Shown: positions 24,509 through 57,208 of the stretch, piece after piece
How the letters are laid out: each line of letters starts with the position of its first letter
Numbering within the stretch: the first letter of the stretch is position 1
Assembly: GCA_934167965.1 (NCBI GenBank)
Contig: CAKPMJ010000002.1
Location: forward strand, 90,907 to 154,906
Direction: 5' to 3'
DNA length: 64,000 bases
Origin: an uncultured Clostridia bacterium
GTDB taxonomy: Bacteria; Bacillota; Clostridia; TANB77; CAG-508
Program-made: the position numbers and the translations under genes
Notes under the pieces: generated by a model
Told to the model about the DNA's origin: nothing
Seen by the model: the letters and a program-made list of their open reading frames with translations, nothing else
Databases searched by the model: none

Positions 24509-24734
24509 ATAACTTCTCCTTTTTTTTACTACATATTACATTATACTATTTTTTTCAAATTTGTCAAGTGTTTAGCAAGTTTTGATAGCATAAATTTTCA
24601 GTAGGATTTCTCTTTTATAAAATTGTGAAACTATTTCTGCTGTTGAAATTCGAATTTCTAATTTAATTTTATATTTTTATCTTAATTTTTCTGTATTTTT
24701 AGAGTTCACTTAATAAACCTTTTTTAGACTATTT

Positions 24735-25601
24735 TCAAAATATCATATTTCCCTTATCTCTTATCTTCATTCTGTATTCATTTATTTTATATCCACAAAA
24801 ATTTACTCCTTGTTTTCCTTTAAATATTTGTGTTTTTTTATTTAATTCTAACTGTAATTTTTCTTTTAAAAATTTTGTTATTTGCTCTAGTGCATTTTTT
24901 GCCTCCTGTTTTGTTTCTACAATTAATACACTGTCATCTAAATACCTCGCATAATATTTTATATGTAATTTATGTTTTACAAATTGGTCTATTTCATTTA
25001 AATAAATATTTCCAAACATTTGAGATGTATAATTTCCTATTTCTAATCCTTTTTTTCTGGACTGTGAATATAATATTTCTTTTATAAGCCATATTATTTT
25101 TTTGTCTTTTATTTTTCTTTCTATTATTTCTAATAATATTTTTTTATTTATATTATCGAAATATTTGGCTACATCCATTTTTAATATATAATAATTTTTC
25201 CATTTATTTTTTGCTTTTTTCATACATGATTGTACATACAATGCTGCTCTATGCATTCCCCTTCCTTTTAAACAAGCATAAGAATTACTTATAAACGTTG
25301 GTACAAATGCTGGTTCTAAAAAGTTATCTACTAACCATCTATGTACTATTCTGTCTATATACCTAGATTTTTCTATTTTTCTTATTTTAGGTTCTGTTAC
25401 ATAAAATACTGTATATCCTCCATGTTTATATGTCATATCTTTTAATTTTTTATATAAATACATTATATATTCTTCTTGTTTTAAATAAAAATTTATATTT
25501 TCTATTCTATATCCTTTTCCCTTTTTAGATTTTATGTGTGCATCCATTAATTTTTCATAACTTAATTTTTTGTCATATTCATTTCTTATTGTCTTTGGCA
25601 T
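24735..25601 (-). CDS. Diversity-generating retroelement (DGR) reverse transcriptase
   Basis: RVT_1 domain with YARYLDD (YxDD) and the DGR-specific motif-4 variant LEIGNYTSQMFGNIYLNEID (IGxxxSQ instead of QGxxxSP). No maturase or endonuclease domain; N-terminus ...EPKIRKI...DRIVHRWL is typical of bRT-like RTs. Confidence 0.8.
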   Translation of the reverse strand: MPKTIRNEYDKKLSYEKLMDAHIKSKKGKGYRIENINFYLKQEEYIMYLYKKLKDMTYKHGGYTVFYVTEPKIRKIEKSRYIDRIVHRWLVDNFLEPAFVPTFISNSYACLKGRGMHRAALYVQSCMKKAKNKWKNYYILKMDVAKYFDNINKKILLEIIERKIKDKKIIWLIKEILYSQSRKKGLEIGNYTSQMFGNIYLNEIDQFVKHKLHIKYYARYLDDSVLIVETKQEAKNALEQITKFLKEKLQLELNKKTQIFKGKQGVNFCGYKINEYRMKIRDKGNMIF

Positions 25602-25962
25602 AATATTTTAATAATCCCCCTATTATTTTTCCTATTTCATATATCTGTTCTATTGCAATATTAAATTTTTTATTATCTATCCATCTGTTTTTATACATTA
25701 TTCTTAAAAATATTCGTTGAGTATTAAGCTCTGCATCTATTGCATTTATTATATTTAGACAATCTTTTGTTTCTTGTATTTTGCTTATATATAATACATC
25801 TTTTATCATTTTGTACATACTTGTTTTATATTCTGTCCCTATACTGAACTTTTCTATTCTTGGTATTTTTATTATTAAATTAATCATATATTCTACGTAT
25901 TTTTCTGTTTTAGGTATTAATATTAATTTATTTTCTTTTTCCTTATTCAATCTATTCACCAA
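25579..25962 (-). CDS. Avd-like accessory variability determinant (four-helix-bundle protein, PF05635-like)
   Basis: 127-aa basic helical protein overlapping the RT start by 23 nt. It resembles the four-helix-bundle/23S-IVS protein family (…AELNTQ…EIGKIIGGLLKYY). Confidence 0.65.
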   Translation of the reverse strand: MVNRLNKEKENKLILIPKTEKYVEYMINLIIKIPRIEKFSIGTEYKTSMYKMIKDVLYISKIQETKDCLNIINAIDAELNTQRIFLRIMYKNRWIDNKKFNIAIEQIYEIGKIIGGLLKYYAKDNKK

Positions 25963-26161
25963 CTTCTATCTCTAAATATCTTTCTAATGCAATTTCATAA
26001 TTCGTTTTTTCTTTGTGAATATTTTTAAGACATTCACTACATTTTTTATTTAATAATACCGCATCTTCTCCTATTGCAATATAAAATGCACCACATGATA
26101 CTAATATTATTTCATTTATATATATTTCTTTTAGTTTTAATATCATTTCATAAAAATTCAT
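25952..26161 (-). CDS. Small hypothetical ORF (69 aa) between the DGR target and avd
   Basis: ORF only; overlaps the avd start; function unknown. Confidence 0.3.
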   Translation of the reverse strand: MNFYEMILKLKEIYINEIILVSCGAFYIAIGEDAVLLNKKCSECLKNIHKEKTNYEIALERYLEIEVGE

Positions 26162-26288
26162 CTTTTATCATTCCTTTCTTTCTAAAAAAGGTGATATGCT
26201 ATTTTTTTGAACAAAAAAATAGCACACCACGCTAGTGGTGCACCACGCTAATTGCATTCGCTAATTATTATTAGCTTCTAATTTCCTA

Positions 26289-26373
26289 TATTTTCATAGC
26301 AATAGCCTTTTCTAGGTTATCGCTTTTAGAGTTCAGACCTACTTTATATAAAGTGTGAGGCGAGTAGAATAGT
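26289..26373 (-). repeat. Conserved post-VR element (IMH-like GC-rich block CTCGCCTCACAC, stop codon, 3' UTR), copy 1. The other copy, with one mismatch, is at 55861..55945.
   Basis: Direct comparison of the two loci. Confidence 0.7.
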
Positions 26374-27589
26374 TGGTGCTAGTATAGAGTGGACCGTCGT
26401 CGCTGCGAAGGCTAGGTGAATTGCTAATGCCGTGAAAACCACCACTGTAAGTACGACTGTAAGTGCTGTACGCCTCTAATGTCCACTCTAAACTATTTCC
26501 CAATAAATCATATATATTATTTAACTTATCTGTTGATACTGTTCCTGTTTTTCGCGTTGTATTTCTACTTGTTTTTACTCCTTCTAAATTTTTTGGAGTA
26601 GTTGATGTTACATCTATTCCATTTCCTTGCATCCACATCATCATTTGATCATATTGACTTCCCCATATCATACTACTTCCTACTACATTTGTTAATTTAT
26701 TTTTTCCACTATATTCTTTATCTTTTTGATATAATCCATACCATGTATTTGCACTACTAGTTTGCGCTGTTGCTGAAGTTGCTCCTGATACTGATTGGGC
26801 ATTTTTGGATGTTTCATTTAAACTAGTTTCATATCTTCCTACATAAAATCCTTTATTTTTTCCTACATATTTTATCATCTCATCAAATTCATTTTGTAAT
26901 TGTGTTTTCCACTTAGTTAGTATTTCTTCATCTGTTCCATTTAATCCTACTATATTTTTTAATAATCCAATTCCTTTTGTATCATCTCCTGTTACAGCAT
27001 CTCCAATTGTTGGATTTGATAAATAATCTGGTTCTCTCCTTCCTGTCACACTTGTCAATGCCATTATTCCTGATGTTTCTGTCCAGTTTAATGCTGTATA
27101 TCCACCTGAAGTAAAATCATAAAGTTTTCCTAGTTTCTTTCCTTCTGCATTTGTACCATACATTTTACTTACATCTTTTACTGGTACCCATACAAATTCA
27201 CTATTATCTGGGGCTACTACTACTATTCCTTTTTTTACTTCTGTTGGTGAATCTTCTTTTATTTTAAATCCTACTGGCACTACTATAGTTTCTCCATTAT
27301 CATCTTGTAATTTTGCTTTTCTTCCTTCTATAATTTTATTTTTATTGTCTTTTACCTTTCCTAAATTTCCTGTACTTTCCTCCATTAAGATTTCTAGATC
27401 TGTTAAGTCTTCTGTTTCATTTGCTTGTGCTTGCTCTGTTTTTGTTTTAGCCTCTGCTGCCTTTTTTAATATTCCATTCTCTCCTGATAGCATTGCTATT
27501 GCTACTCCTGCTAATATCAATAACACTATTATTGTTATTACTAGTGCTATTAATGTTATACCTTTGCTGGTATTTAATCTTTTTGTCAT
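26339..27589 (-). CDS. DGR target protein 1: pilin-like N-terminal signal/anchor plus C-terminal FGE-sulfatase/CLec-fold domain carrying a variable region
   Basis: N-terminus KGITLIALVITIIVLLILAGVAIAMLSGENGIL (type IV pilin/pseudopilin-like class III signal). C-terminus FYVGRYETS...NTWYGLYQ...SSMIWGSQYDQMMMW...NIYDLLGNSLEWTLE...RGG (FGE-sulfatase/CLec motifs). Its 3' end is a VR relative to the paralog at 55911..57149. Confidence 0.8.
   Translation of the reverse strand: MTKRLNTSKGITLIALVITIIVLLILAGVAIAMLSGENGILKKAAEAKTKTEQAQANETEDLTDLEILMEESTGNLGKVKDNKNKIIEGRKAKLQDDNGETIVVPVGFKIKEDSPTEVKKGIVVVAPDNSEFVWVPVKDVSKMYGTNAEGKKLGKLYDFTSGGYTALNWTETSGIMALTSVTGRREPDYLSNPTIGDAVTGDDTKGIGLLKNIVGLNGTDEEILTKWKTQLQNEFDEMIKYVGKNKGFYVGRYETSLNETSKNAQSVSGATSATAQTSSANTWYGLYQKDKEYSGKNKLTNVVGSSMIWGSQYDQMMMWMQGNGIDVTSTTPKNLEGVKTSRNTTRKTGTVSTDKLNNIYDLLGNSLEWTLEAYSTYSRTYSGGFHGISNSPSLRSDDGPLYTSTNYSTRLTLYIK
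26374..26510 (-). other. DGR variable region VR1 at the 3' end of target 1
   Basis: Locally GC-richer segment. It aligns gap-free with 55946..56080 and differs at 32 of 98 core positions, while both flanks are identical. Confidence 0.75.
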
Positions 27590-28111
27590 ATCGTTAATCT
27601 CCTTTCATTTTTTTCTAAAGTTTTGTAATTTTTTTAATTTTATTTTTATGTTTTTATTTTATTTAATAATAAAATTTTGTATTTTTTTATTCAAAATAAA
27701 TAATAGTTTATTGAACTATTCAGCAAAGATATTTAATTTTCAATGTGCTATTATTCATTTTTTCCTAAAAATTTACACGTTTATTATAGCATAGGGATTT
27801 TTATTTTTCAACCATTTTTAACAATTTATTTTTGCCTTACAAACTACATTTTACTTTTACTATTTACCAAATTTATTTTTATTTGCCATCTTTTTATTTT
27901 CTGATTTTACTCTCCGTACATATCTTTTCCACTCACATTATAATTGGTCATTTCTGTCGCTAAATTTTTTTCTGCTATTGTTAATGTTGGTAAAAAATCT
28001 GCAAGTGATCTATTTTCTTTTATTCCATATCTTGTCATCAACATATAAGTCTTCGATTTCTCTTTTGGCTCCCTTAGCTAAATTTATCTTTTATATCCAA
28101 GTTGCTCTTGA

Positions 28112-29860
28112 TCATTTCTTTGCTAATATTTTTTCAAATTCTTTAAATCTTTTTACTTTTTGAGTAGTAGTCTTTTCAAGTGGCTCAGTTGTTATTATTA
28201 ATTCTTTTATTCTCTTAAATACTGGTAAGCTCTTATTTATTTCTTTTATATCTTCCCATACCAAGTTTTTATATTCTTTTTCTGTTTTATCGCCGAATTT
28301 TTCTTTTATAATTTCTGGATCATATACTAATTTTATTCCTAGACTAATTTCTCCTTTTGTATTTTCTCTTGGATATAATATACTTTCTGTAACATAAGGT
28401 AATTTATTTACTAAGAATTCAATGTCACTTGGAAATACATTTTCACCATTTTTTAATACTATCACATCTTTCTTTCTTCCAGATATAAATAAATATCCAT
28501 CTTTATTATAGTATCCTAAGTCTCCTGTATGGAACCATCCATCTTTCATAACACTTTCTGTTGCTTCTGGGTTCTCATAATATCCAAGCATAACATTAGG
28601 TCCTTTTACAACTATTTCTCCAACACCATTTTCATCAACATCTTCTAATTTTAATTCAACATTATATGGTGCCATTCCTACACTTCCTGGGCATTTTTGT
28701 TTATCTGTTTCAGCTGCAACTAATGGTGATGTTTCTGTTAAACCATATCCTTGAACTGTTTCTATACCAAAACTGTTGTATCCATCTATTACTTTTTTAT
28801 CCATTGCTGCTGCTCCAAAATATGCTATTCTTAAATTCCCTCCAAGTTGATCTAACACACTTTTAAATAATTTTCTTCTTACATCTATATGTAGTTTTAA
28901 TAATCCATTGGCTAATCCACTCATTGTATCAACTAGTTTTGCTTTTCCTTGATCTTCTATAGATTTTCTTATCTTTTTATATATTGTTTCTAATACTAAT
29001 GGTACAGCAACAAATACACTTACTTTATATTCTACTAAGTTCTTAGCAATATATTTTAATCCATCACAAAATGCTACTGTAACTCCACTATAAAATCCAT
29101 ATAAAAATGTTATTGTGCATTCAAATGTATGATGTAATGGTAAAAATGATAATAAGACATCATTATCATACATTTTAGACATCTTAGCCATAGCAATTAT
29201 ATTAGATGTAATATTTTTTTGTGATAACATTACACCTTTTGCCATGCTTGTTGTTCCTGATGTAAATATTAATATACTCATTTTATTGTTATCAATTTTC
29301 ACATCTGCATATCTATGGTCACCATCTTCTATTTTCTTCATTCCTTGTTCAACTAATTCTTTAAATGATAATATACCATTTTCCTCTTTTTTCAAGTCCA
29401 TATTTATATAGTATTTTATTGTTTCGTTTTCTTCTCTTATACTATTGAAAACTTCGTTATATTTATTTTCATATATAACAGCATCAACTTTACTTCTTTC
29501 AATTAGATTTTTTATTTCTTGTTCTGGTAATGCTTTATCTAATGGCACTACTACCATATTAGATGTTGTTATTGCAAAATAACTTTCACACCATTCATAT
29601 CTATTATTTCCTATTAATGCAATTTTTTTATTTTCCAATCCTAATTCAAGTAACATTGTTCCCAATGCTTCTACTTCTTTTTTTACCTCTGAATAAGTTT
29701 TTTCTATTACTTTTTGATTCTTCTTCCCTAAGTTTTCTTTAAACTTGTATGCTACATTATTTGGGTATGTTTCACAACTATGGTTTATTAACTCCCTAAA
29801 ATTATTAATTTCATAAACTTCATAAAGATTACTATTTAATTTTTTCATTTTTCCCTCCAT
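28112..29860 (-). CDS. AMP-dependent synthetase/ligase (long-chain acyl-CoA synthetase, FAA1-type)
   Basis: AMP-binding motifs (IFTSGTTSMAKGV; GYGLTETSP; TGDLGYYNKDGYLFISGRKKD; VKRFKEFEK). Confidence 0.85.
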   Translation of the reverse strand: MEGKMKKLNSNLYEVYEINNFRELINHSCETYPNNVAYKFKENLGKKNQKVIEKTYSEVKKEVEALGTMLLELGLENKKIALIGNNRYEWCESYFAITTSNMVVVPLDKALPEQEIKNLIERSKVDAVIYENKYNEVFNSIREENETIKYYINMDLKKEENGILSFKELVEQGMKKIEDGDHRYADVKIDNNKMSILIFTSGTTSMAKGVMLSQKNITSNIIAMAKMSKMYDNDVLLSFLPLHHTFECTITFLYGFYSGVTVAFCDGLKYIAKNLVEYKVSVFVAVPLVLETIYKKIRKSIEDQGKAKLVDTMSGLANGLLKLHIDVRRKLFKSVLDQLGGNLRIAYFGAAAMDKKVIDGYNSFGIETVQGYGLTETSPLVAAETDKQKCPGSVGMAPYNVELKLEDVDENGVGEIVVKGPNVMLGYYENPEATESVMKDGWFHTGDLGYYNKDGYLFISGRKKDVIVLKNGENVFPSDIEFLVNKLPYVTESILYPRENTKGEISLGIKLVYDPEIIKEKFGDKTEKEYKNLVWEDIKEINKSLPVFKRIKELIITTEPLEKTTTQKVKRFKEFEKILAKK

Positions 29861-45563: not shown

Positions 45564-45613
45564 TAATACTATTTTGTGTTTTAATTGTCAATATTTTATT
45601 TGAATTTTTTTAA

Positions 45614-45642
45614 GTTGTCAAAAAGGAACGTCCCCATTGACA
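45614..45642. repeat. 29-nt palindromic motif, copy A: TTGTCAAAAAGGAACGTCCCCATTGACAA
   Basis: 7-nt inverted arms TTGTCAA/TTGACAA around a 15-nt asymmetric core. Other copies at 57180..57208 and 49616..49682; degenerate copy at ~50829..50851. Confidence 0.7.
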
Positions 45643-45861
45643 ATAAGTTTGTATCTCACCAATCCCTTTTTCTATGTATTGCCTAACTTCATTATTTTCA
45701 ATATTCATTTTTTTGTAAGCATCAAATATCAAATTATATATTTCTTGTTTTGACTTATTTTTAAATTTCTCATATATATTTTGTACATCATTCAAATCTA
45801 ATTTTAATTCTAAATAATCTCTACCTGCTAATATACATCCTATTGCCTGTACTAAAACAAT

Positions 45862-49617: not shown

Positions 49618-49682
49618 GAGTGTCAAATGGGACGTTCCTTAATGACAATATATTGTCATTAAGGAACGTCCCATTTGACACT
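49616..49682. repeat. Perfect 67-nt palindrome made of two inverted copies of the 29-nt motif (GAGTGTCAAATGGGACGTTCCTTAATGACAATAT|ATATTGTCATTAAGGAACGTCCCATTTGACACTC)
   Basis: Read directly from the sequence; lies between convergent genes and may also act as a bidirectional terminator. Confidence 0.8.
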
Positions 49683-50818: not shown

Positions 50819-50898
50819 ATTAAAAGGTGCCAAAAGGAACATCCCTCTCGACCTTTCCATCAACACAAAAACCATCTCATTAAGAGATGGTTTAAATA

Positions 50899-50975
50899 TG
50901 GTGCTCCCTCAAGGATTCGAACCTTGGACCCACCGGTTATGAGCCGGTTGCTCTGACCAACTGAGCTAAGGGAGC
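50899..50975 (-). tRNA. tRNA with anticodon CAT (Met; could be tRNA-Ile2 after lysidine modification)
   Basis: Minus-strand cloverleaf GCTCCCT/TAGCTCAGTTGGTCAGAGC/AACCGGCTCATAACCGG/TGGGTC/CAAGGTTCGAATCCTTG/AGGGAGC-A-CCA, with encoded CCA. A terminator hairpin follows at 50865-50892. Confidence 0.85.
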
Positions 50976-51132
50976 AATTATTCACGACATTTAGTAGTAT
51001 ATATTATTTTTTTTGTTTTGTCAATAGTTTTTTTGTATTTTTTTGTTTATTTTGTTTTTATTTTATTAAAATATAACAATAGTTAATATATTAGCATTAA
51101 ACTAATATATTAACTATACATAAAAAACTAAA

Positions 51133-52065
51133 TTATATGTTTTCTCCTCTACCTTCTGGTAATGCATTACTTGGAAGTTCGATTCTAATTTTAATTCTAA
51201 ATACATAAGTTGCTGCTCTAACGATTTTGCTATTTTTAATTCTTTGCCATAATGATGGTTTAGCTTCAAATGTTGTTGCTTCTTGATATGCTTGTTGTTC
51301 TTCTTTCTCTGCAACTTCTGCTGCTACTACATTTTCTTGTTTTGCTTCTTCTTGTTTGTTTTCAACTGCTTCAACAGTCTGAACAGCTTGAGCATTTTCT
51401 TGAGCCATTGCTTCTTGTTCTTCAATAGCTTCTATTTGTTCTTCTGGTGTTGGTATTAATTTTAATGCATCTGCAATTTCAATTCCTATAAAACTTAATG
51501 CCTTAGAACTATCTTCTAATCTTTCCATATCTATTTCTATATGTAAATTAGACTCTAAATTATTTATTCTTGCTTTTAATAATTTAATAGAATCTAAATA
51601 ATTTTGTGATGTTTTTGTTTTGCATCTTCCTAAAGTATTTAAAGTTTCTATTATATCCTCAGAGAATTTTTCTGTTGCTGCTTCTATATCTTCTTTCCAT
51701 CCTTCTTCTTTGTTAGATACTTTTTCCACTAATTCTTTAAGCTCTGCTGCCAATGATATATTTTCTTCTCTTTGCTTAATTAATTCTTCTATTTTTTGAG
51801 TATTTTCTTCAAATTGTGTTGTAGCAAATTCAACTAAGCCATAAGCAGCTTTATATACACTTATAGGGAAATTTTTCTTTTTTGGATATTCTATTAAATA
51901 TGTTTTTATAGATTCAATTAGATCTTTGAAATATGTATCTTCTTCTAATTGAATTATTTGTTTTTTGCTGTTTGGATTTATTAATTTTTGTACTTTTTCT
52001 ATATTTGATAAAATCTTTTCTTCCGTAATTACCATCCTTACATTTACTATGCCAGATCTAGACAT
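51133..52065 (-). CDS. Hypothetical coiled-coil protein with a Glu/Ala/Gln-rich segment
   Basis: ORF only. Confidence 0.45.
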   Translation of the reverse strand: MSRSGIVNVRMVITEEKILSNIEKVQKLINPNSKKQIIQLEEDTYFKDLIESIKTYLIEYPKKKNFPISVYKAAYGLVEFATTQFEENTQKIEELIKQREENISLAAELKELVEKVSNKEEGWKEDIEAATEKFSEDIIETLNTLGRCKTKTSQNYLDSIKLLKARINNLESNLHIEIDMERLEDSSKALSFIGIEIADALKLIPTPEEQIEAIEEQEAMAQENAQAVQTVEAVENKQEEAKQENVVAAEVAEKEEQQAYQEATTFEAKPSLWQRIKNSKIVRAATYVFRIKIRIELPSNALPEGRGENI

Positions 52066-52210
52066 TGTAAACTTCCCTCCTTTGTTTCTAATTATTACAT
52101 TATATACTTTGATTATACAACATCTTACAAAAAACTACAAGCCATTTTCCGTAAGTTTTTATTTACATTTCTGTTACATAAATATTACAAAAATATTACA
52201 AGGATTCAAG

Positions 52211-53917
52211 TTATCCTTGTAATATTTTTTCCATCTCAACTTTTCTTTTTATTTTATGAGTTGTAGTCTTTTCAAACTCTTCATCTGTTATTAATAGATT
52301 TTTTATCCATTTATATTTTGGCATTGTTCTATTAACTACTTTTACTTCTTTCCATATAAGCTCTTTAATCTCATCTTCCGTAAGGTTTCCATATTTTTCT
52401 TGTATGTAATTTTTATCATATACAACCTTTACACTTACAGTTATGTCTTTATCCTTAAAATCTTCAGCACCATAAACCATTGATTCATCAACTAATGGAG
52501 AATTATTTAACAAAGTTTCTAGCTCTTCTGGATATACATTTTTTCCATTTGATAAAACAATAACAAATTTCTTTCTTCCTGAAATAAATATGTATCCATC
52601 TTTATCAATTTTTGCATAATCTCCTGTATGAAGCCATCCATCTTCTGTAAAAGCCTCTTTATTCGCTTCATCATCTCCAAAGTAACCTAGCATTACGCTA
52701 TCACCTTTTACAAGTAATTCGCCTACTCCTGTTTTTTCATCAACTTCATCTAATTTAACTTCTACACTTGGTAGTTTCTTTCCGATAGAGCCTATTCTTC
52801 TTTGATTTGTAAGCTCTGCTGCAATTACTGGTGATGTCTCTGTCAAACCATATCCTTGTAATAAATTAAATCCTAAGTCAAAAAATCCTTTTTCTACTTC
52901 TGGGCTTAAAGCTGCTCCTCCAGCAACCATAACCTTAATCTTTCCACCTAAGTTTTGATGAATATCTTTAAATAATCTTTTACGTACATCTATACCTACT
53001 TTAGATAAAATGTTGCTCATTTTTACTGCTGTTTTTACTGTTCCATCTTTACCTTTATCTTTTATTCCTTTTAGTAACTTTCCATACATTTTTTCATATA
53101 CAACTGGTACACAAATCATTGCAGTTATTCCAAATGTTTTCAATTCATCTGCAATATGTCTTACACCTTTAGAAAATACAATACTTGCTCCAATTGATAT
53201 TGGATATAAAAATCCTACTGTACATTCAAATGTATGATGTAATGGTAAAAATGATAATAATATATCTTCATCAGTAAGTTCAAAGGATTCTTGGATATCC
53301 ATAATATTAGTACATATATTTTTATGAGATAGCATTACTGCTTTTGATTTATTTGTTGTTCCTGATGTAAATAACATTATTCCCATTTCTTCGTTATTGA
53401 TTTCTGCATCTATAAATTCCTTATTTCCGCTATCTACTAATTCTTTTCCTTTTTCTAATATCTCTTTTAGAGAATATTTATCAAATACATGTTTTTCTAA
53501 ATCCATAGAAATAAAATATTTTAATTTTGAATCTCCCTTTTTTTGGATGTTTGCCATTGCCTCATCATATTTATTTGAATAGACTATAGCTTCAACTTCT
53601 GAACGCAAAATTAAACTTTCTATTTCATTTTCTGGTAATGCCTTATCTAAAGGTACAACTACACCAACTCCTGTAGCAATAGCAAGATATGCTAATTCCC
53701 ATTCATATCTGTTTTCACCTATTACAGCTATTCTTTTACCTTTTAAGCCCATTTCTATCATTGCAGTACCTAAATAATTTATTTCTTCTCTGAATTGTTT
53801 ATGTGTAATTTCTCTTACTCCAGATTTTTCTTGTAATAAATATGCTTTTTTGTCTCCATATTTTTCACCTGTCTGTTTTAACATATCTTTTAAATCTTTA
53901 AATTCCATAGTTCTCAT
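52211..53917 (-). CDS. AMP-dependent synthetase/ligase (long-chain acyl-CoA synthetase), paralog of 28112..29860
   Basis: LFTSGTTNKSKAV; GYGLTETSP; TGDYAKIDKDGYIFISGRKKF; C-terminal KIKRKVEMEK. Confidence 0.85.
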   Translation of the reverse strand: MRTMEFKDLKDMLKQTGEKYGDKKAYLLQEKSGVREITHKQFREEINYLGTAMIEMGLKGKRIAVIGENRYEWELAYLAIATGVGVVVPLDKALPENEIESLILRSEVEAIVYSNKYDEAMANIQKKGDSKLKYFISMDLEKHVFDKYSLKEILEKGKELVDSGNKEFIDAEINNEEMGIMLFTSGTTNKSKAVMLSHKNICTNIMDIQESFELTDEDILLSFLPLHHTFECTVGFLYPISIGASIVFSKGVRHIADELKTFGITAMICVPVVYEKMYGKLLKGIKDKGKDGTVKTAVKMSNILSKVGIDVRKRLFKDIHQNLGGKIKVMVAGGAALSPEVEKGFFDLGFNLLQGYGLTETSPVIAAELTNQRRIGSIGKKLPSVEVKLDEVDEKTGVGELLVKGDSVMLGYFGDDEANKEAFTEDGWLHTGDYAKIDKDGYIFISGRKKFVIVLSNGKNVYPEELETLLNNSPLVDESMVYGAEDFKDKDITVSVKVVYDKNYIQEKYGNLTEDEIKELIWKEVKVVNRTMPKYKWIKNLLITDEEFEKTTTHKIKRKVEMEKILQG

Positions 53918-55657
53918 TTATTCTGTTCCTTTCTCATTTTCCTGTTTTAATTTTAAATATCCCAATTCATTCCAACTATTATATGCTAAGTTCAATCTAA
54001 ATACAACTTTAGGTTTAGCTCCTGCTCTATTTTTATCAACAACACATGCATAATATCTAACATCAGGGTCATCAAATTTTTCTAAGTCATAAAATTTTGT
54101 ATCTACTTCTTTTAATGAATATTCATATTGGTCTAATGTGCTTCTTGGTATTTGTTTTATTAAACATAATGTATCTAATACCTCTTTTACTGTTCTACTA
54201 GCAGATAAATCATTTACATCTAAGTTTATAGGCAATGTTGCACTTTCTGTTAATTGAAGTGTTGACCCTATAAATATATTAAAGTCTTGCGCTAAATTTG
54301 ACAATATTGTTGCTGTTTTCTTTACCTCTTCTCCATTTCCAATATGTGCAGTATCTGTTTTTAATGTATCATAAAACATATATTGTATTTGTTCTTTATA
54401 ATAATAATTTTTTATTACTTTGCTTAATTCATCATTTGTATGATCTGTAATGTTTATAAAATATATTGCATTGTTTACTTGAGTATTTAACCAATCTGTA
54501 GCTTTCAATGTTTTATTAAAGTCTGATGAATATTTTTTTAATTTTTCTATAAACTCTGTTTGTGTTTCTTTTTTATTTCTTGCTATATAACCATTTTCGT
54601 CTATTTCTACATCATCTTTATTATCTGGTCTAAATTTTAATTCTAGTAATTCACCTTCGCTAATCTTTATTTTTTGTCCATGTATTTTTTGAATCTCTGG
54701 ATTATTTATAATTGTTGTAATCAAACATAGCTTCATTTTTTCTTCTGACATTTCATTTGAAATTACTAACACTTTCTTTTTATGTACAAAAGCAAGATAT
54801 GCGGCTAAATTTATTGTAAATCTACTTTTACCAGAGTTTGATGGCATTGCAAAAGCTGTTGTTTCTCCTCTTCTTATACCTTTAAACACACTTGATAATA
54901 TATTAAATGGTAAATTAAGACCTTTGGCTAAGTTATTTTCTCCTGCTGTCAAAAATTCTGTTATTCCTTCATTTAATACAGCTTGTTTAAATTTAGCTGT
55001 TACCTGTGCCTGATTCACTGCGCTTTCAACTTCCTCAATTGACATTTGGTCATATAATTCATAATTTACTATATCTACAATTTTATTTTGAATTGATTTT
55101 ATTGGTATTTCTAAATAACTTTTTCTTAATATAAATAATTTCTTTAGTTCAACATAAACTTTTTCAAAATCTATTCTTTCATTTTCGACTTTGTTTTTTA
55201 AATCTAATTTTAGTTGATATGACTCTTTTGTATCTTTTGCAAAATTATAATTTCTTTTTGCTTTTTCAGAGGCGTATTTATCACCTTCTGTAAATAAAAC
55301 ACTTTTATATAAATTTAATATCTCTTGATTTGCAAAATAATTTTCTTCAAATACAAAATAGTACATACTTATAGATTTAGGGTCATTCAACAAAAGTCCC
55401 ATATATTGCTCTTCAAGTTCTTCATTCATCAACGCATTTGGGTATATTTGCCCTTCTTCTGTTAAATAATCATCTTCTATTTTTTCCTCTTCTTCATCTG
55501 TTTTGTTTTCTTGTAATTTTTTTAATTCATATACTGCTTGCTCAACTTCATCGTTGTCTAACATTTCTTTTATCTCTTCTAATTTTTCTCTATTTCCCTT
55601 TGTTACAGGAATTGCTTTTAATAATTGATACATTTTTTCTTTTATTTCAGGATTCAT
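53918..55657 (-). CDS. Divergent DnaB-family helicase-like protein (N-terminal DnaB_N-like plus RecA-like C-terminal domain)
   Basis: YMGLLLNDPKSISMYYFVFEENYFAN (DnaB N-terminal pattern). Walker A-like GETTAFAMPSNSGKSRFTINLAAYLA. C-terminal VVDKNRAGAKPKVVFRL (DnaB KqRnGptG-like). Stop TAA abuts the ATG of the downstream ligase gene. Confidence 0.55.
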   Translation of the reverse strand: MNPEIKEKMYQLLKAIPVTKGNREKLEEIKEMLDNDEVEQAVYELKKLQENKTDEEEEKIEDDYLTEEGQIYPNALMNEELEEQYMGLLLNDPKSISMYYFVFEENYFANQEILNLYKSVLFTEGDKYASEKAKRNYNFAKDTKESYQLKLDLKNKVENERIDFEKVYVELKKLFILRKSYLEIPIKSIQNKIVDIVNYELYDQMSIEEVESAVNQAQVTAKFKQAVLNEGITEFLTAGENNLAKGLNLPFNILSSVFKGIRRGETTAFAMPSNSGKSRFTINLAAYLAFVHKKKVLVISNEMSEEKMKLCLITTIINNPEIQKIHGQKIKISEGELLELKFRPDNKDDVEIDENGYIARNKKETQTEFIEKLKKYSSDFNKTLKATDWLNTQVNNAIYFINITDHTNDELSKVIKNYYYKEQIQYMFYDTLKTDTAHIGNGEEVKKTATILSNLAQDFNIFIGSTLQLTESATLPINLDVNDLSASRTVKEVLDTLCLIKQIPRSTLDQYEYSLKEVDTKFYDLEKFDDPDVRYYACVVDKNRAGAKPKVVFRLNLAYNSWNELGYLKLKQENEKGTE

Positions 55658-55910
55658 ATTTTTTTTCCTCCTAGTATTTGTTCTTGCTTATTATATCATT
55701 TAGTTTTTTGTATTTCAAGTATTTTGTTAATAAATACTCCTGTATATATTTTTTTCATACTAATCTTGGTAAGCCTTTATTAACAAAAAAATTAGCCAAA
55801 ATCCTTAAATTTACTTTAAGAATTATTTGACTAATTTTTCCTTCTTTTATTAATTTTCTATATTTTCATAACAATAGCCTTTTCTAGGTTATCGCTTTTA
55901 GAGTTCAGAC

Positions 55911-57149
55911 CTACTTTATATAAAGTGTGAGGCGAGTAGAATAGTCGCTGCTAGTAAGGTACGGATGGTTGTTGGGGCGATTGCTAGGTGAAAAGCTAAG
56001 GCTGAAATAACCACCTCTGAGAGCACGACGGCTAGTGTAGTTCGCCTCTAATGTCCATTCATAACTATTTCCTAGTAAATCATATATATTGTTTAATTTA
56101 TCTGTTGAGACTGTTCCTGTTTTTCGTGTTGTATTTCTACTTGTTGTTACTCCTTCTAAATTTGTTGGAGTTTTTGATGTTACGTCTATTCCATTTTCTT
56201 GCATCCATATCATCATTTGATCATATTGACTTCCCCATATCATACTACTTCCTACTACATTTTTTATTTTATCTTGCCCACTATATTCTTTATCTTTTTG
56301 ATATAATCCATACCATGTATTTGCACTACTTGTTTCTGCTGTTGCCGATGCTACGCCAGATATTGATTGAGCATTTTTTGTTTCTGTGTTTAAACTTGTT
56401 TCATATCTTCCTACATAGAATCCTTTATTTTTTTCTACATATTTTATCATTTCATCAAATTCGTTTTGTAATTGTGTTTTCCATTTCGTTAGTATCTCTT
56501 CATCTGTTCCATTTAAACCTACTATACTTTTCAATAAAGCTATTCCTTTTGCATCATCCCCTGTTATTGCATCTCCATATGCTGTACTTGATAAATAGTC
56601 TGGCTCTCTGTAGTCTGTTGCACCTGTCCATTTCATAACTCCTGATGTCTCTGTCCAACTATTCGCTCTATATCCACTTGAAGTAAAGTTATAAAGTTTT
56701 CCTAGTTTCTTTTCTTCTGCATTTGTTCCATACATTTTACTTACATCTTTTACTGGCACCCATACAAATTCACTATTATCTGGTGCTACTACTACTATTC
56801 CTTTTTTTACTTCTGTCGGTGAATCTTCTTTTATTTTAAATCCTACTGGCACTACTATAGTTTCTCCATTGTCATCTTGTAATTTTACTTTTCTTCCTTC
56901 TATAACTTTATTTTTATTGTCTTTTACCTTTCCTAAGTTTCCTGTACTTTCTTCCATTAAAATTTCTAAATCTGTTAAGTCTTCTGTTTCATTTGTTTGT
57001 GCTTCTTCTGTTTTCATTTTAGCATCTGCAGCCTTCTTTAATATTCCATTTTCTCCTGATAGCATTGCTATTGCGACTCCTGCTAATATCAATAACACTA
57101 TTATTGTTATTACTAGTGCTATTAATGTTATTCCATTGTTTTTCTTCAT
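55911..57149 (-). CDS. DGR target protein 2 (paralog of 26339..27589) with a distinct C-terminal variable region
   Basis: Same pilin-like N-terminus (NGITLIALVITIIVLLILAGVAIAMLSGENGIL) and FGE/CLec domain. The C-terminal ~45 aa differ (…EANYTSRRALRGGYFSLSFSPSNRPNNHPYLTSSDYSTRLTLYIK). Confidence 0.8.
   Translation of the reverse strand: MKKNNGITLIALVITIIVLLILAGVAIAMLSGENGILKKAADAKMKTEEAQTNETEDLTDLEILMEESTGNLGKVKDNKNKVIEGRKVKLQDDNGETIVVPVGFKIKEDSPTEVKKGIVVVAPDNSEFVWVPVKDVSKMYGTNAEEKKLGKLYNFTSSGYRANSWTETSGVMKWTGATDYREPDYLSSTAYGDAITGDDAKGIALLKSIVGLNGTDEEILTKWKTQLQNEFDEMIKYVEKNKGFYVGRYETSLNTETKNAQSISGVASATAETSSANTWYGLYQKDKEYSGQDKIKNVVGSSMIWGSQYDQMMIWMQENGIDVTSKTPTNLEGVTTSRNTTRKTGTVSTDKLNNIYDLLGNSYEWTLEANYTSRRALRGGYFSLSFSPSNRPNNHPYLTSSDYSTRLTLYIK
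55946..56080 (-). other. DGR variable region VR2
   Basis: See VR1; mismatches are confined to this block. Confidence 0.75.
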
Positions 57150-57179
57150 ATTATTTCTTCCTTTCTTTATTTTTTATTA

Positions 57180-57208
57180 TTGTCAAAAATGAACGTCCCC
57201 ATTGACAA
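57180..57208. repeat. 29-nt palindromic motif, copy B (TTGTCAAAAATGAACGTCCCCATTGACAA), 30 nt upstream of the target-2 start codon
   Basis: 27/29 identical to copy A. Confidence 0.7.

What the first reader, a model, noticed from the sequence alone, without database searches (positions are those of the whole stretch)
24735..27589. Diversity-generating retroelement cassette: target(VR) - small ORF - avd - RT
The 288-aa RT carries the IGxxxSQ motif-4 variant (LEIGNYTSQMFGNIYL) that separates DGR RTs from group II intron and retron RTs. It also has YARYLDD and lacks maturase and endonuclease domains. The RT start overlaps a 127-aa basic four-helix-bundle, Avd-like gene. Upstream on the same strand is a 416-aa protein with a C-terminal FGE-sulfatase/CLec-fold domain. 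Its last ~45 codons are hypervariable relative to a paralog at 55.9 kb. The whole minus-strand block is a DGR in the classic mtd-avd-TR-brt order, apart from the missing TR.
Basis: partly seen in the sequence, partly recalled or inferred. Interest (0 to 1): 0.85.

Follow-up and report, generated by a model that had tools for sequence, protein, structure and literature searches.

The report
Truncated, template-less diversity-generating retroelement remnant
This is a real diversity-generating retroelement in a gut Clostridia chromosome, but a deletion has removed its template repeat and the end of its reverse transcriptase, so on its own it can no longer rewrite its two pilin-like lectin target genes; broken copies like this are common.

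Summary
The four minus-strand ORFs exist as described. The cassette is DGR-derived. Avd is recognised by Pfam, NCBIfam and PHROGs. The RT's best solved homolog is a 328-aa RT that I take to be the Bordetella phage DGR RT. The target C-terminus models as a CLec/FGE fold.

It is not an intact DGR. About 98%-identical sister cassettes (L094, L096-L098) read target - MutS-like gene (136 aa) - avd - RT (337 aa) - TR. In the window, homology to them stops at 24748, after RT codon 284. The last 53 RT codons (thumb) and the TR are gone. The "small ORF" is the MutS-like gene with a 201-nt in-frame deletion.

No TR lies in the 64 kb. Against the sister TR, VR-B differs at 23 sites, all TR adenines. VR-A differs at 25 sites, 22 of them TR adenines. 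Both variable regions are therefore past products of mutagenic retrohoming.

VR-A is identical in every contig that carries the truncated RT together with this part of the target (window, L001, L003, L004), and in a fifth contig (L091) that lacks the RT region.

The most likely state is an inactivated remnant with frozen target alleles. Diversification in trans by another copy outside the window is not excluded. This is a new member of a known kind, of low to moderate interest.

The parts
27783..27811 (-). Sigma-70-type promoter of target A (TTGAAA-17-TATAAT with TG extension). It lies inside the 250-nt upstream stretch (27590-27839) that is shared with sister cassettes.
   Evidence: 11/12 match. 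One search shows it conserved in L094 and L092. One search shows homology to L094, L095 and L092 starting at 27839.
26339..27589 (-). Target gene A. It has a pilin-like N-terminal hydrophobic segment, a long helix, a beta-rich middle domain and a C-terminal CLec/FGE-fold domain that carries the VR.
   Evidence: pilin N-terminus E=0.003; SUMF2 E=0.03; pLDDT 91.3; Mtd, TaqVP, TvpA and FGE top matches.
26349..26475 (-). Variable region A (VR-A). Over the 119-nt core it has 25 mismatches to the sister TR, 22 of them at TR adenines.
   Evidence: blastn of the L096 TR 1973-2099 against 26475-26349. Identical in L001, L003, L004 and L091.
26279..26348 (-). Element after the VR. It is 100% identical downstream of VR-A and VR-B and includes the stop codon, a CTGAA motif conserved across the family, and a weak hairpin at 26298-26324. 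Candidate IMH / target-recognition element (inferred).
   Evidence: hairpin -5.5 kcal/mol, z -1.4, not significant alone; motif after the stop codon in relatives.
26191..26246 (-). Intrinsic terminator-like hairpins with T-runs between target A and the accessory genes.
   Evidence: (-22.2 kcal/mol, z -6.3).
25952..26161 (-). MutS-like (MSL) accessory gene with a 201-nt in-frame internal deletion (69 aa versus 136 aa in sister L094). The junction is near 26052/26053 and is flanked in the sister by the direct repeat TAAATAAAAAAT.
   Evidence: MutS_I, 8.7e-5, model positions 7-53 only; alignment with L094; relatives of 117-161 aa match MutS_I positions 9-85.
25579..25962 (-). avd, apparently intact. 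It differs at 2 residues from sister L094.
24735..25601 (-). Truncated DGR reverse transcriptase. Codons 1-284 are homologous (fingers and palm, with IGNYTSQ and YLDD present). Homology ends at 24748. The last 4 codons and the stop come from unrelated flank. The thumb (about 53 residues) is missing.
24509..24747 (-). Unrelated chromosomal flank where sisters carry the RT 3' end, the TR and a small OB-like ORF. It contains a perfect promoter (24567-24540) for the next gene. No TR is present.
55911..57149 (-). Target gene B, a remote paralog (84% amino-acid identity) with no DGR core genes nearby.
55921..56047 (-). Variable region B (VR-B). Over the 119-nt core it has 23 mismatches to the sister TR, all at TR adenines.
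55851..55920 (-). Element after the VR of target B, identical to the one after target A.
   Evidence: (D1).

Best explanation
The block is a chromosomal diversity-generating retroelement of the MSL + Avd type, in an uncultured, low-GC, spore-forming gut Clostridia bacterium. It has been inactivated by deletion.

Intact form, as seen in sisters: target(VR) - terminator - MSL - avd - RT - TR - small OB-like ORF. The expected mechanism is the established DGR one. TR RNA is reverse-transcribed by RT/Avd with misincorporation opposite adenines. The cDNA then replaces the VR at the 3' end of pilin-like, CLec-fold surface proteins and changes their ligand-binding face.

Shown: in this lineage that process wrote both VR-A and the remote VR-B. 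Also shown: a rearrangement or deletion ending at 24748 then removed the last ~53 RT codons (thumb), the TR and everything downstream, and a separate 201-nt deletion gutted MSL.

Inferred: without a template and with a thumb-less RT, the cassette cannot diversify anything by itself. The two target genes keep their promoters and open reading frames, so they now encode fixed alleles of a formerly variable adhesin-like protein.
For: DGR identity:
- Avd models match.
- The full-length sister RT (P0242) matches the 328-aa solved RT 8ub7 end to end (E=1.6e-35), better than group II or retron RTs.
- The RT carries the IGxxxSQ motif.
- In 47 related genome loci, a 90-nt stretch 1-150 nt after the RT matches a stretch upstream in the target, with 6-24 mismatches at TR adenines and at most 1 elsewhere.

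Truncation:
- Nearly all of the 120 best RT homologs are 336-339 aa.
- The window RT diverges after KIRDKG.
- DNA identity to L094 is 98.2% over 26056-24748 and then stops. In L094 and L096 the RT 3' end and the TR follow.
- The same junction occurs in independent assemblies from several samples, including a 372-kb scaffold and a 12.7-kb Hadza contig.

No TR in the window:
- An adenine-tolerant scan and blastn with the sister TR find only the two VRs.
- There is no second RT, avd or MSL in the window.

Past activity:
- VR-B is 23/23 and VR-A 22/25 mismatches at adenines of the sister TR, which has 51 A in 119 nt. The chance probabilities are 3e-9 and 4e-6.
- 30 of the 32 A-versus-B differences are at codon positions 1 or 2.

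Frozen state:
- VR-A is identical in the window, L001, L003, L004 and L091.
- The 90% clusters of target A and target B each hold a single sequence, seen on 4 and 8 contigs.
- No intact RT of the same 90% cluster was found in the samples that carry the truncated one.

MSL deletion.
Against: - Only 64 kb of the genome is visible. Related genomes carry 2-3 copies of this DGR family, and related strains have targets with no RT nearby (L092). A second, intact core elsewhere in this genome could therefore still act on VR-A and VR-B.
- Both VRs retain a perfectly conserved element downstream.
- Identical VRs across samples are also seen for the intact sister (L094, L095, L098), so VR identity across samples is weak evidence of inactivity.
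- The truncated RT shows no excess of non-synonymous change on its branch (5 synonymous, 4 non-synonymous). The loss is therefore recent, and decay cannot be shown from substitutions.
- That a thumb-less RT is inactive is inferred from general RT knowledge and was not tested.
Confidence: 0.85

Rival explanations
1. The cassette is a decayed spare copy, but its targets are still live. Another intact DGR core of the same family elsewhere in the genome supplies RT, Avd and a matching TR in trans, so VR-A and VR-B continue to be diversified.
For: - The family is multi-copy in related MAGs (for example L013+L025 and L029+L037+L042).
- Related strains hold tandem targets with no core nearby (L092).
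- VR-B is already a remote target, 29.5 kb from the core.
- The element after the VR is 100% conserved at both targets.
- VR-A and VR-B seem to derive from slightly different TR alleles, at positions 36, 81 and 94.
Against: - No other RT, avd, MSL or TR lies in the 64 kb.
- No intact RT of the same 90% cluster was found in any sample that carries the truncated one.
- Neither target has a VR variant anywhere in its 90% cluster.
- VR-A is identical in five contigs.
Confidence: 0.12
2. The junction at 24748 is an assembly artefact, a chimeric join at a repeat. The real genome would then carry an intact RT and TR.
For: Metagenome assemblers often break or misjoin at DGR repeats. Many related contigs end at the VR or TR (L005 starts exactly at the VR 3' end; L094 ends just after its TR).
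Against: - The same 288-aa product and the same downstream genes (57-aa ORF, rpmE, CBS, SipL) occur in independent assemblies from different studies.
- The break is inside a unique coding sequence, not at the VR/TR repeat.
- An independent sister, L099, has a different deletion at the same site.
Confidence: 0.02
3. The RT/Avd pair is not a DGR but a defence or retron-type RT system that happens to sit next to a variable paralog family.
For: NCBIfam gives only sub-threshold hits, the best to group II RT/maturase, followed by Drt3a and a retron RT. No TR is present.
Against: - The full-length sister RT (P0242) is closest to the solved RT 8ub7 that I take to be bRT.
- Avd-specific models match.
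- 47 relatives carry TR/VR pairs with adenine-only mismatches.
- The sister TR explains both VRs in the window.
Confidence: 0.01

Closest known systems
MSL-containing DGRs (Architecture D of Wu et al. 2018, PMC5758913), which include the Legionella pneumophila DGR
   Same: A small MutS domain I-like accessory gene sits together with avd, a DGR-clade RT and a CLec-type target with a C-terminal VR. All genes are on one strand.
   Different: Here the MSL is cut down to 69 aa. Published MSLs are 112-283 aa and the sisters have 117-161 aa. The TR in this family follows the RT, and a conserved ~82-95-aa ORF (82-92 aa in the three examples read in full) follows the TR in relatives. The window copy lacks the TR and the RT thumb.
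Bordetella phage BPP-1 DGR (mtd-avd-TR-brt)
   Same: The full-length sister RT aligns end to end with the 328-aa solved RT (8ub7), which I recognise from memory as bRT. Avd is present. The target has a CLec fold with the VR at its C-terminus, and Mtd is the top structural match. The VRs show adenine-specific mutagenesis.
   Different: The gene order is target-MSL-avd-RT-TR, not mtd-avd-TR-brt. The element is chromosomal, not on a phage tail-fibre gene. The targets are pilin-like. There are two targets, one of them remote. This copy is truncated and has no template.
Inactivated or incomplete DGRs discarded in surveys (Wu et al. [quoted passage not shown]
   Same: Truncated RT, no usable TR, VR left as a fossil.
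   Different: Here the intact sister, at about 98% identity, is available. The lesions can therefore be mapped to the nucleotide, and the fossil VRs can be assigned to their lost template.
Bacteroides DGRs that diversify Type V pilus adhesins (bioRxiv 10.1101/2024.11.15.621889)
   Same: A gut commensal DGR acting on pilus-associated, adhesin-like surface proteins, with several targets per element.
   Different: Different phylum and a different pilus type. Here the N-terminus resembles a type IV pilin or pseudopilin, weakly supported. G-type pilin domains on DGR targets have been noted only as rare cases (PMC11661182).

Membership tests
Diversity-generating retroelement (DGR) | Reverse transcriptase of the DGR clade (motif 4 [I/V/L]GxxxSQ; closest to bRT rather than to group II or retron RTs) | tested here: met
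   IGNYTSQ and YLDD are present. The full-length sister RT (P0242) matches the solved 328-aa RT 8ub7 (bRT from my own knowledge of its sequence) at 1.6e-35, against 3.9e-21 for GsI-IIC and 4e-16 for a retron-type RT.
Diversity-generating retroelement (DGR) | Complete RT including the thumb domain | tested here: not met
   The RT is 288 aa against 336-339 aa in homologs. Homology ends at codon 284. The missing part aligns to residues ~272-316 of 8ub7 and to the thumb region of GsI-IIC.
Diversity-generating retroelement (DGR) | Template repeat near the RT that matches the VR except at adenines | tested here: not met
   No TR is present in the 64-kb window. In sisters the TR lies 20-30 nt after the RT stop, a region deleted here.
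Diversity-generating retroelement (DGR) | Variable region whose differences from the template are adenine-specific | tested here: met
   Against the TR of the 98%-identical sister, VR-B is 23/23 and VR-A 22/25 mismatches at TR adenines. Neither VR can be the template of the other (13/32 and 12/32).
Diversity-generating retroelement (DGR) | Avd accessory protein | tested here: met
   PF22296 at 8.4e-17, above its cutoff. NF033474 at 9e-19, below its cutoff. PHROG 3206 'Avd protein of DGR' at 3.5e-18.
Diversity-generating retroelement (DGR) | Target protein with a CLec/FGE-type fold that displays the VR at its C-terminus | tested here: met
   AlphaFold model with pLDDT 91.3 and pTM 0.85. The top Foldseek PDB matches are Mtd 1yu0, TaqVP 5vf4, TvpA 2y3c, FGE, SUMF2 and PvdO, at modest E-values of 5e-4 to 1e-2.
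Diversity-generating retroelement (DGR) | IMH and hairpin element at the 3' end of the VR | tested here: inconclusive
   About 70 nt after the variable part are identical at both targets. A CTGAA motif after the stop codon recurs in relatives. The predicted hairpin is weak and not better than shuffles.
Diversity-generating retroelement (DGR) | Ongoing diversification (VR variation within a lineage or population) | tested here: inconclusive
   VR-A is identical in 5 contigs, and each target cluster holds a single sequence. Intact sisters also show identical VRs across samples. Read-level data were not available.
MSL (MutS-like) DGR accessory protein | Small protein homologous to MutS domain I, encoded beside avd | tested here: inconclusive
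   MutS_I hit at 8.7e-5, above the Pfam cutoff, but covering only model positions 7-53. Only residues 1-38 align with full-length relatives. 67 codons are deleted relative to L094.
Type IV pilin / pseudopilin-like proteins | N-terminal prepilin cleavage/methylation motif followed by a hydrophobic helix | tested here: inconclusive
   N_methyl PF07963 is below its cutoff (E=0.072 for A, 0.0022 for B). A profile hit to geopilin and MshA N-termini gives E=0.003-0.04. The model shows a long N-terminal helix. The canonical Glu at +5 is absent (sequence).

The most novel reading that the evidence does not exclude
Loss of the TR and RT thumb may not be random decay but a recurrent, possibly selected, off-switch. 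The A-rich tract just after RT codon 284 is the break or frameshift point in several independent family members: the window copy, the L099/P0243 and P0010 fusions to the downstream ORF, and frameshifts in P0042, P0100 and P0089. Such a switch would lock in a useful VR allele. Alternatively, the locked-looking targets may still be rewritten in trans by another copy. Either reading would make this family a natural system for studying how DGR activity is switched off or shared between loci.
Probability: 0.12. Interest if true: 0.55.

Novelty: new member of a known kind. Interest (0 to 1): 0.25.

Why it matters
- It shows that an RT + Avd + CLec-target block cannot be counted as an active DGR without checking RT length and the TR.
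- It is a cleanly mapped natural example of DGR inactivation, in which the fossil variable regions can still be assigned to their lost template through a 98%-identical intact sister.
- At the family level, the element belongs to an abundant, multi-copy DGR lineage of uncultured gut Clostridia. That lineage diversifies pilin-like lectin proteins, carries an MSL gene, and has a conserved small ORF after the TR. This may interest DGR specialists, but it does not change current understanding.

Tried and rejected
- **TR inside the window.** An adenine-tolerant ungapped scan with VR-A, pattern searches with VR 3' sequences and blastn with the sister TR found only the two VRs.
- **One paralog's VR as the TR of the other.** Rejected: only 13/32 and 12/32 differences fall on adenines.
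- **The missing RT end in another frame downstream.** Rejected: homology simply stops. The flank has no similarity to sister downstream DNA beyond shuffled controls.
- **Exact-pattern scans of IMG/VR and JGI metagenomes** for the sister TR core and for the VR 3' flank found nothing.
- **The genome-contig scan** found no copy closer than 78%. It therefore gave no view of the rest of this genome.
- **Hairpin after the VR.** Present, but not better than shuffled sequence.
- **Substitution pattern on the truncated RT branch.** 5 synonymous and 4 non-synonymous changes, too few to show relaxed selection.
- **Pfam, NCBIfam and PHROGs** gave no domain for the target's C-terminus. The fold came only from structure prediction.
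- **My first VR/TR register was offset by 4 nt.** Those counts are void and are replaced.
Full report
**1. What is in the sequence**

The window is AT-rich (about 26% GC). On the minus strand, one search confirms four ORFs:
- a 416-aa ORF at 26339-27589;
- a 69-aa ORF at 25952-26161;
- a 127-aa ORF at 25579-25962;
- a 288-aa ORF at 24735-25601. The last two overlap.

The neighbours are ordinary chromosomal genes of a spore-former: L31, a CBS protein, SipL/LysM, YunB, SpoIID and an AMP-dependent ligase. There are no phage genes next to the block.

The exact 288-aa protein occurs on 13 human-gut metagenome contigs with the same neighbours. One is a 372-kb scaffold.

**2. Identity of the parts**

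- **avd.** The 127-aa protein matches bAvd (PF22296, 8e-17), the NCBIfam DGR Avd model (9e-19, below its cutoff) and the PHROG 'Avd protein of DGR'.
- **RT.** The 288-aa protein is an RVT_1 reverse transcriptase carrying IGNYTSQ and YLDD. Its full-length sister P0242 aligns end to end with a solved 328-aa RT (8ub7, E=1.6e-35). From its sequence I recognise this as Bordetella phage bRT (my own knowledge). The match is far better than to group II (3.9e-21) or retron RTs.
- **Small ORF.** The 69-aa ORF hits MutS domain I. MutS-like 'MSL' genes are a described DGR accessory class that always co-occurs with avd (Wu et al. 2018, PMC5758913).
- **Target.** The 416-aa protein has no Pfam domain. A 38-sequence alignment gave a confident AlphaFold model (pLDDT 91.3). 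Its best PDB matches are the DGR variable proteins Mtd, TaqVP and TvpA and the FGE family. The N-terminus resembles type IV pilin leaders only weakly.

**3. The family is a bona fide DGR family, ordered target-MSL-avd-RT-TR**

- A scan of species-representative genomes returned 80 loci in uncultured gut Clostridia MAGs. Several MAGs hold 2-3 copies.
- 71 of these loci have RTs that align to residue 330 or beyond.
- In 47 loci, a 90-nt stretch starting 1-150 nt after the RT matches a stretch in the upstream target gene. There are 6-24 mismatches at template adenines and at most one elsewhere.
- Reconstructed TRs are 109-165 nt long.
- About half of the loci show an MSL homolog between the target and avd. 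Full-length MSLs are 117-161 aa.

**4. The window copy is truncated**

- Nearly all of the 120 best RT homologs are 336-339 aa. The window RT diverges after KIRDKG and ends four codons later.
- The decisive comparison is with L094, a 6.2-kb contig that carries target (416 aa) - MSL (136 aa) - avd - RT (337 aa) - TR.
- L094 is 94.2% identical to the window over 27839-26037 and 98.2% identical over 26056-24748.
- The alignment shows two lesions in the window:
  - an exact 201-nt in-frame deletion inside MSL, flanked in L094 by the direct repeat TAAATAAAAAAT;
  - complete loss of homology after 24748, which is RT codon 284. In L094 the remaining 53 RT codons and the TR follow.
- L096, L097 and L098 (same RT, P0242) break homology at exactly the same point.
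- The DNA after the break is unrelated to any sister downstream sequence. It carries a perfect promoter for the next chromosomal gene.
- The junction occurs in independent assemblies from different studies, so it is not an assembly artefact.
- The missing RT segment aligns to the C-terminal ~45 residues of 8ub7 and to the thumb region of the group II RT GsI-IIC.

**5. No TR in the window, but the VRs are genuine DGR products**

- An adenine-tolerant scan and blastn with the sister TR find only two copies in the window: the 3' ends of target A (26349-26475) and of the paralog B (55921-56047).
- There is no other RT, avd or MSL in the window.
- The sister TR core has 51 A in 119 nt. Against it:
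  - VR-B has 23 mismatches, all at adenines;
  - VR-A has 25 mismatches, 22 at adenines;
  - L094's own VR has 23 of 23 at adenines;
  - a fourth VR (L092/L093) has 22 of 24 at adenines.
- The chance probabilities are 3e-9 (23/23) and 4e-6 (22/25).
- The few non-adenine mismatches recur at the same TR positions (36 and 94) in VR-A and in the L092 VR. Their donor TR allele probably had A at those positions (inference).
- The A-versus-B differences fall at codon positions 1 or 2 in 30 of 32 cases.
- Neither VR can be the template of the other (13/32 and 12/32 on adenines).

**6. Is anything still being diversified?**

- VR-A is identical in the window, L001, L003, L004 and L091.
- The 90%-identity clusters of target A and target B each contain one sequence only, seen on 4 and 8 contigs.
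- No intact RT from the same 90% cluster was found in any sample that holds the truncated RT.
- These observations fit frozen alleles, but they are not strong:
  - the intact sisters also show one VR across three samples;
  - the family is multi-copy;
  - related strains carry tandem targets with no core nearby (L092);
  - both VRs in the window keep an identical ~70-nt downstream element.
- A trans-acting intact copy elsewhere in the genome cannot be excluded from 64 kb.
- Substitutions on the truncated RT branch (5 synonymous, 4 non-synonymous) are too few to show relaxed constraint. The loss is recent.

**7. Mechanism**

- Established for DGRs, and supported for this family: TR RNA is copied by RT/Avd with adenine-specific errors, and the cDNA replaces the VR.
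- Shown here: both target genes carry the signature of that process. The cassette now lacks the template and the RT thumb and has a gutted MSL.
- Inferred: the cassette cannot act autonomously. The targets, each with its own promoter (27811-27783 for A) and an intact ORF, now encode fixed variants of a pilin-like lectin.

**8. Comparison and novelty**

- The element is a member of the known DGR kind, closest to the MSL + Avd 'Architecture D'.
- Inactivated DGRs are common. Wu et al. discarded more than half of their candidates for truncations, premature stops, poor TR-VR matches or incomplete sequence.
- Pilin-type domains on DGR targets have been noted as rare.
- The finding is therefore ordinary in kind. 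Its value lies in the precise mapping of the lesions and in some family-level observations.

**9. Side observations**

- A conserved ~82-95-aa ORF (82-92 aa in the three examples read in full) lies just after the TR in 57 of 67 relatives. It has a weak SSB/OB-fold hit.
- The A-rich tract after RT codon 284 is a recurrent site of deletion, fusion or frameshift in independent family members.
- One strain's B locus carries the VR-A sequence exactly.

**Verdict**

The DGR identity is supported, and the intact-DGR reading is rejected. Interest is 0.25.

Noticed in passing
L007:1449-1697, L019:3776-4024, L032:7410-7688, L090:3341-3628 (absent from the window): A conserved ~82-95-aa ORF (82-92 aa in the three examples read in full) lies 305-720 nt after the RT end, just past the TR and on the same strand, in 57 of 67 related loci. 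It has a weak Pfam SSB hit (E=0.018) and no PHROG hit. It is a candidate extra accessory gene of this DGR family. It carries an in-frame stop in L096.
   Followed up: partly
window 24748; L099:1047-2117; proteins P0243, P0010, P0042, P0100, P0089: The A-rich tract just after RT codon 284 (KIRDKGKRKLKKK) is disrupted independently in several family members. L099/P0243 and P0010 fuse the RT to the downstream small ORF and lose the thumb and TR. P0042, P0100 and P0089 are frameshifted there. It is either a mutational hotspot or a possible off-switch.
   Followed up: partly
L091:129-1367, compared with window 26339-27589 and 55911-57149: In another sample, the ortholog of locus B (flanks 97.8% identical to window 50853-55744) carries the VR-A sequence and the A-type 3' end exactly. 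This points to gene conversion between the paralogs or to a chimeric assembly.
   Followed up: partly
L092:6001-9086: A related strain has two target paralogs in tandem (416 aa and 412 aa) next to gyrB and Tex, with no RT, avd or TR within 6 kb. Remote targets therefore seem normal in this lineage.
   Followed up: no
window 45604-45643, 49642-49681, 57169-57208: A 40-nt repeat with inverted TTGTCAA...TTGACAA arms around GGAACGTCCCC occurs three times. The third copy lies about 20 nt upstream of the target B start codon. It may be an operator or promoter element.
   Followed up: no
window 28112-29860 and about 52200-53900: Paralogous AMP-binding (acyl-CoA ligase-like) genes, about 70-74% DNA identity, lie near both target loci but in different relative order. 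This is probably coincidental.
   Followed up: no
window 53918-55657: A 579-aa protein with only a partial DnaB_C helicase domain (1.2e-8) lies immediately downstream of target B. The arrangement is conserved in L091.
   Followed up: no
L094:4268-4678, L096:318-587, L098:1578-1847, window 25952-26161: MSL length varies among near-identical sister cassettes (136 aa, an 89-aa ORF, and 69 aa). MSL therefore seems dispensable or decaying in this sub-lineage, even where the RT and TR are intact.
   Followed up: partly
sister TR positions 36, 81 and 94 (L094:6069-6187), compared with window 26352-26470: The non-adenine mismatches of VR-A recur at the same TR positions in the unrelated L092 VR. VR-A was therefore probably templated by a TR allele with A at those sites, different from the allele that fits VR-B.
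   Followed up: partly
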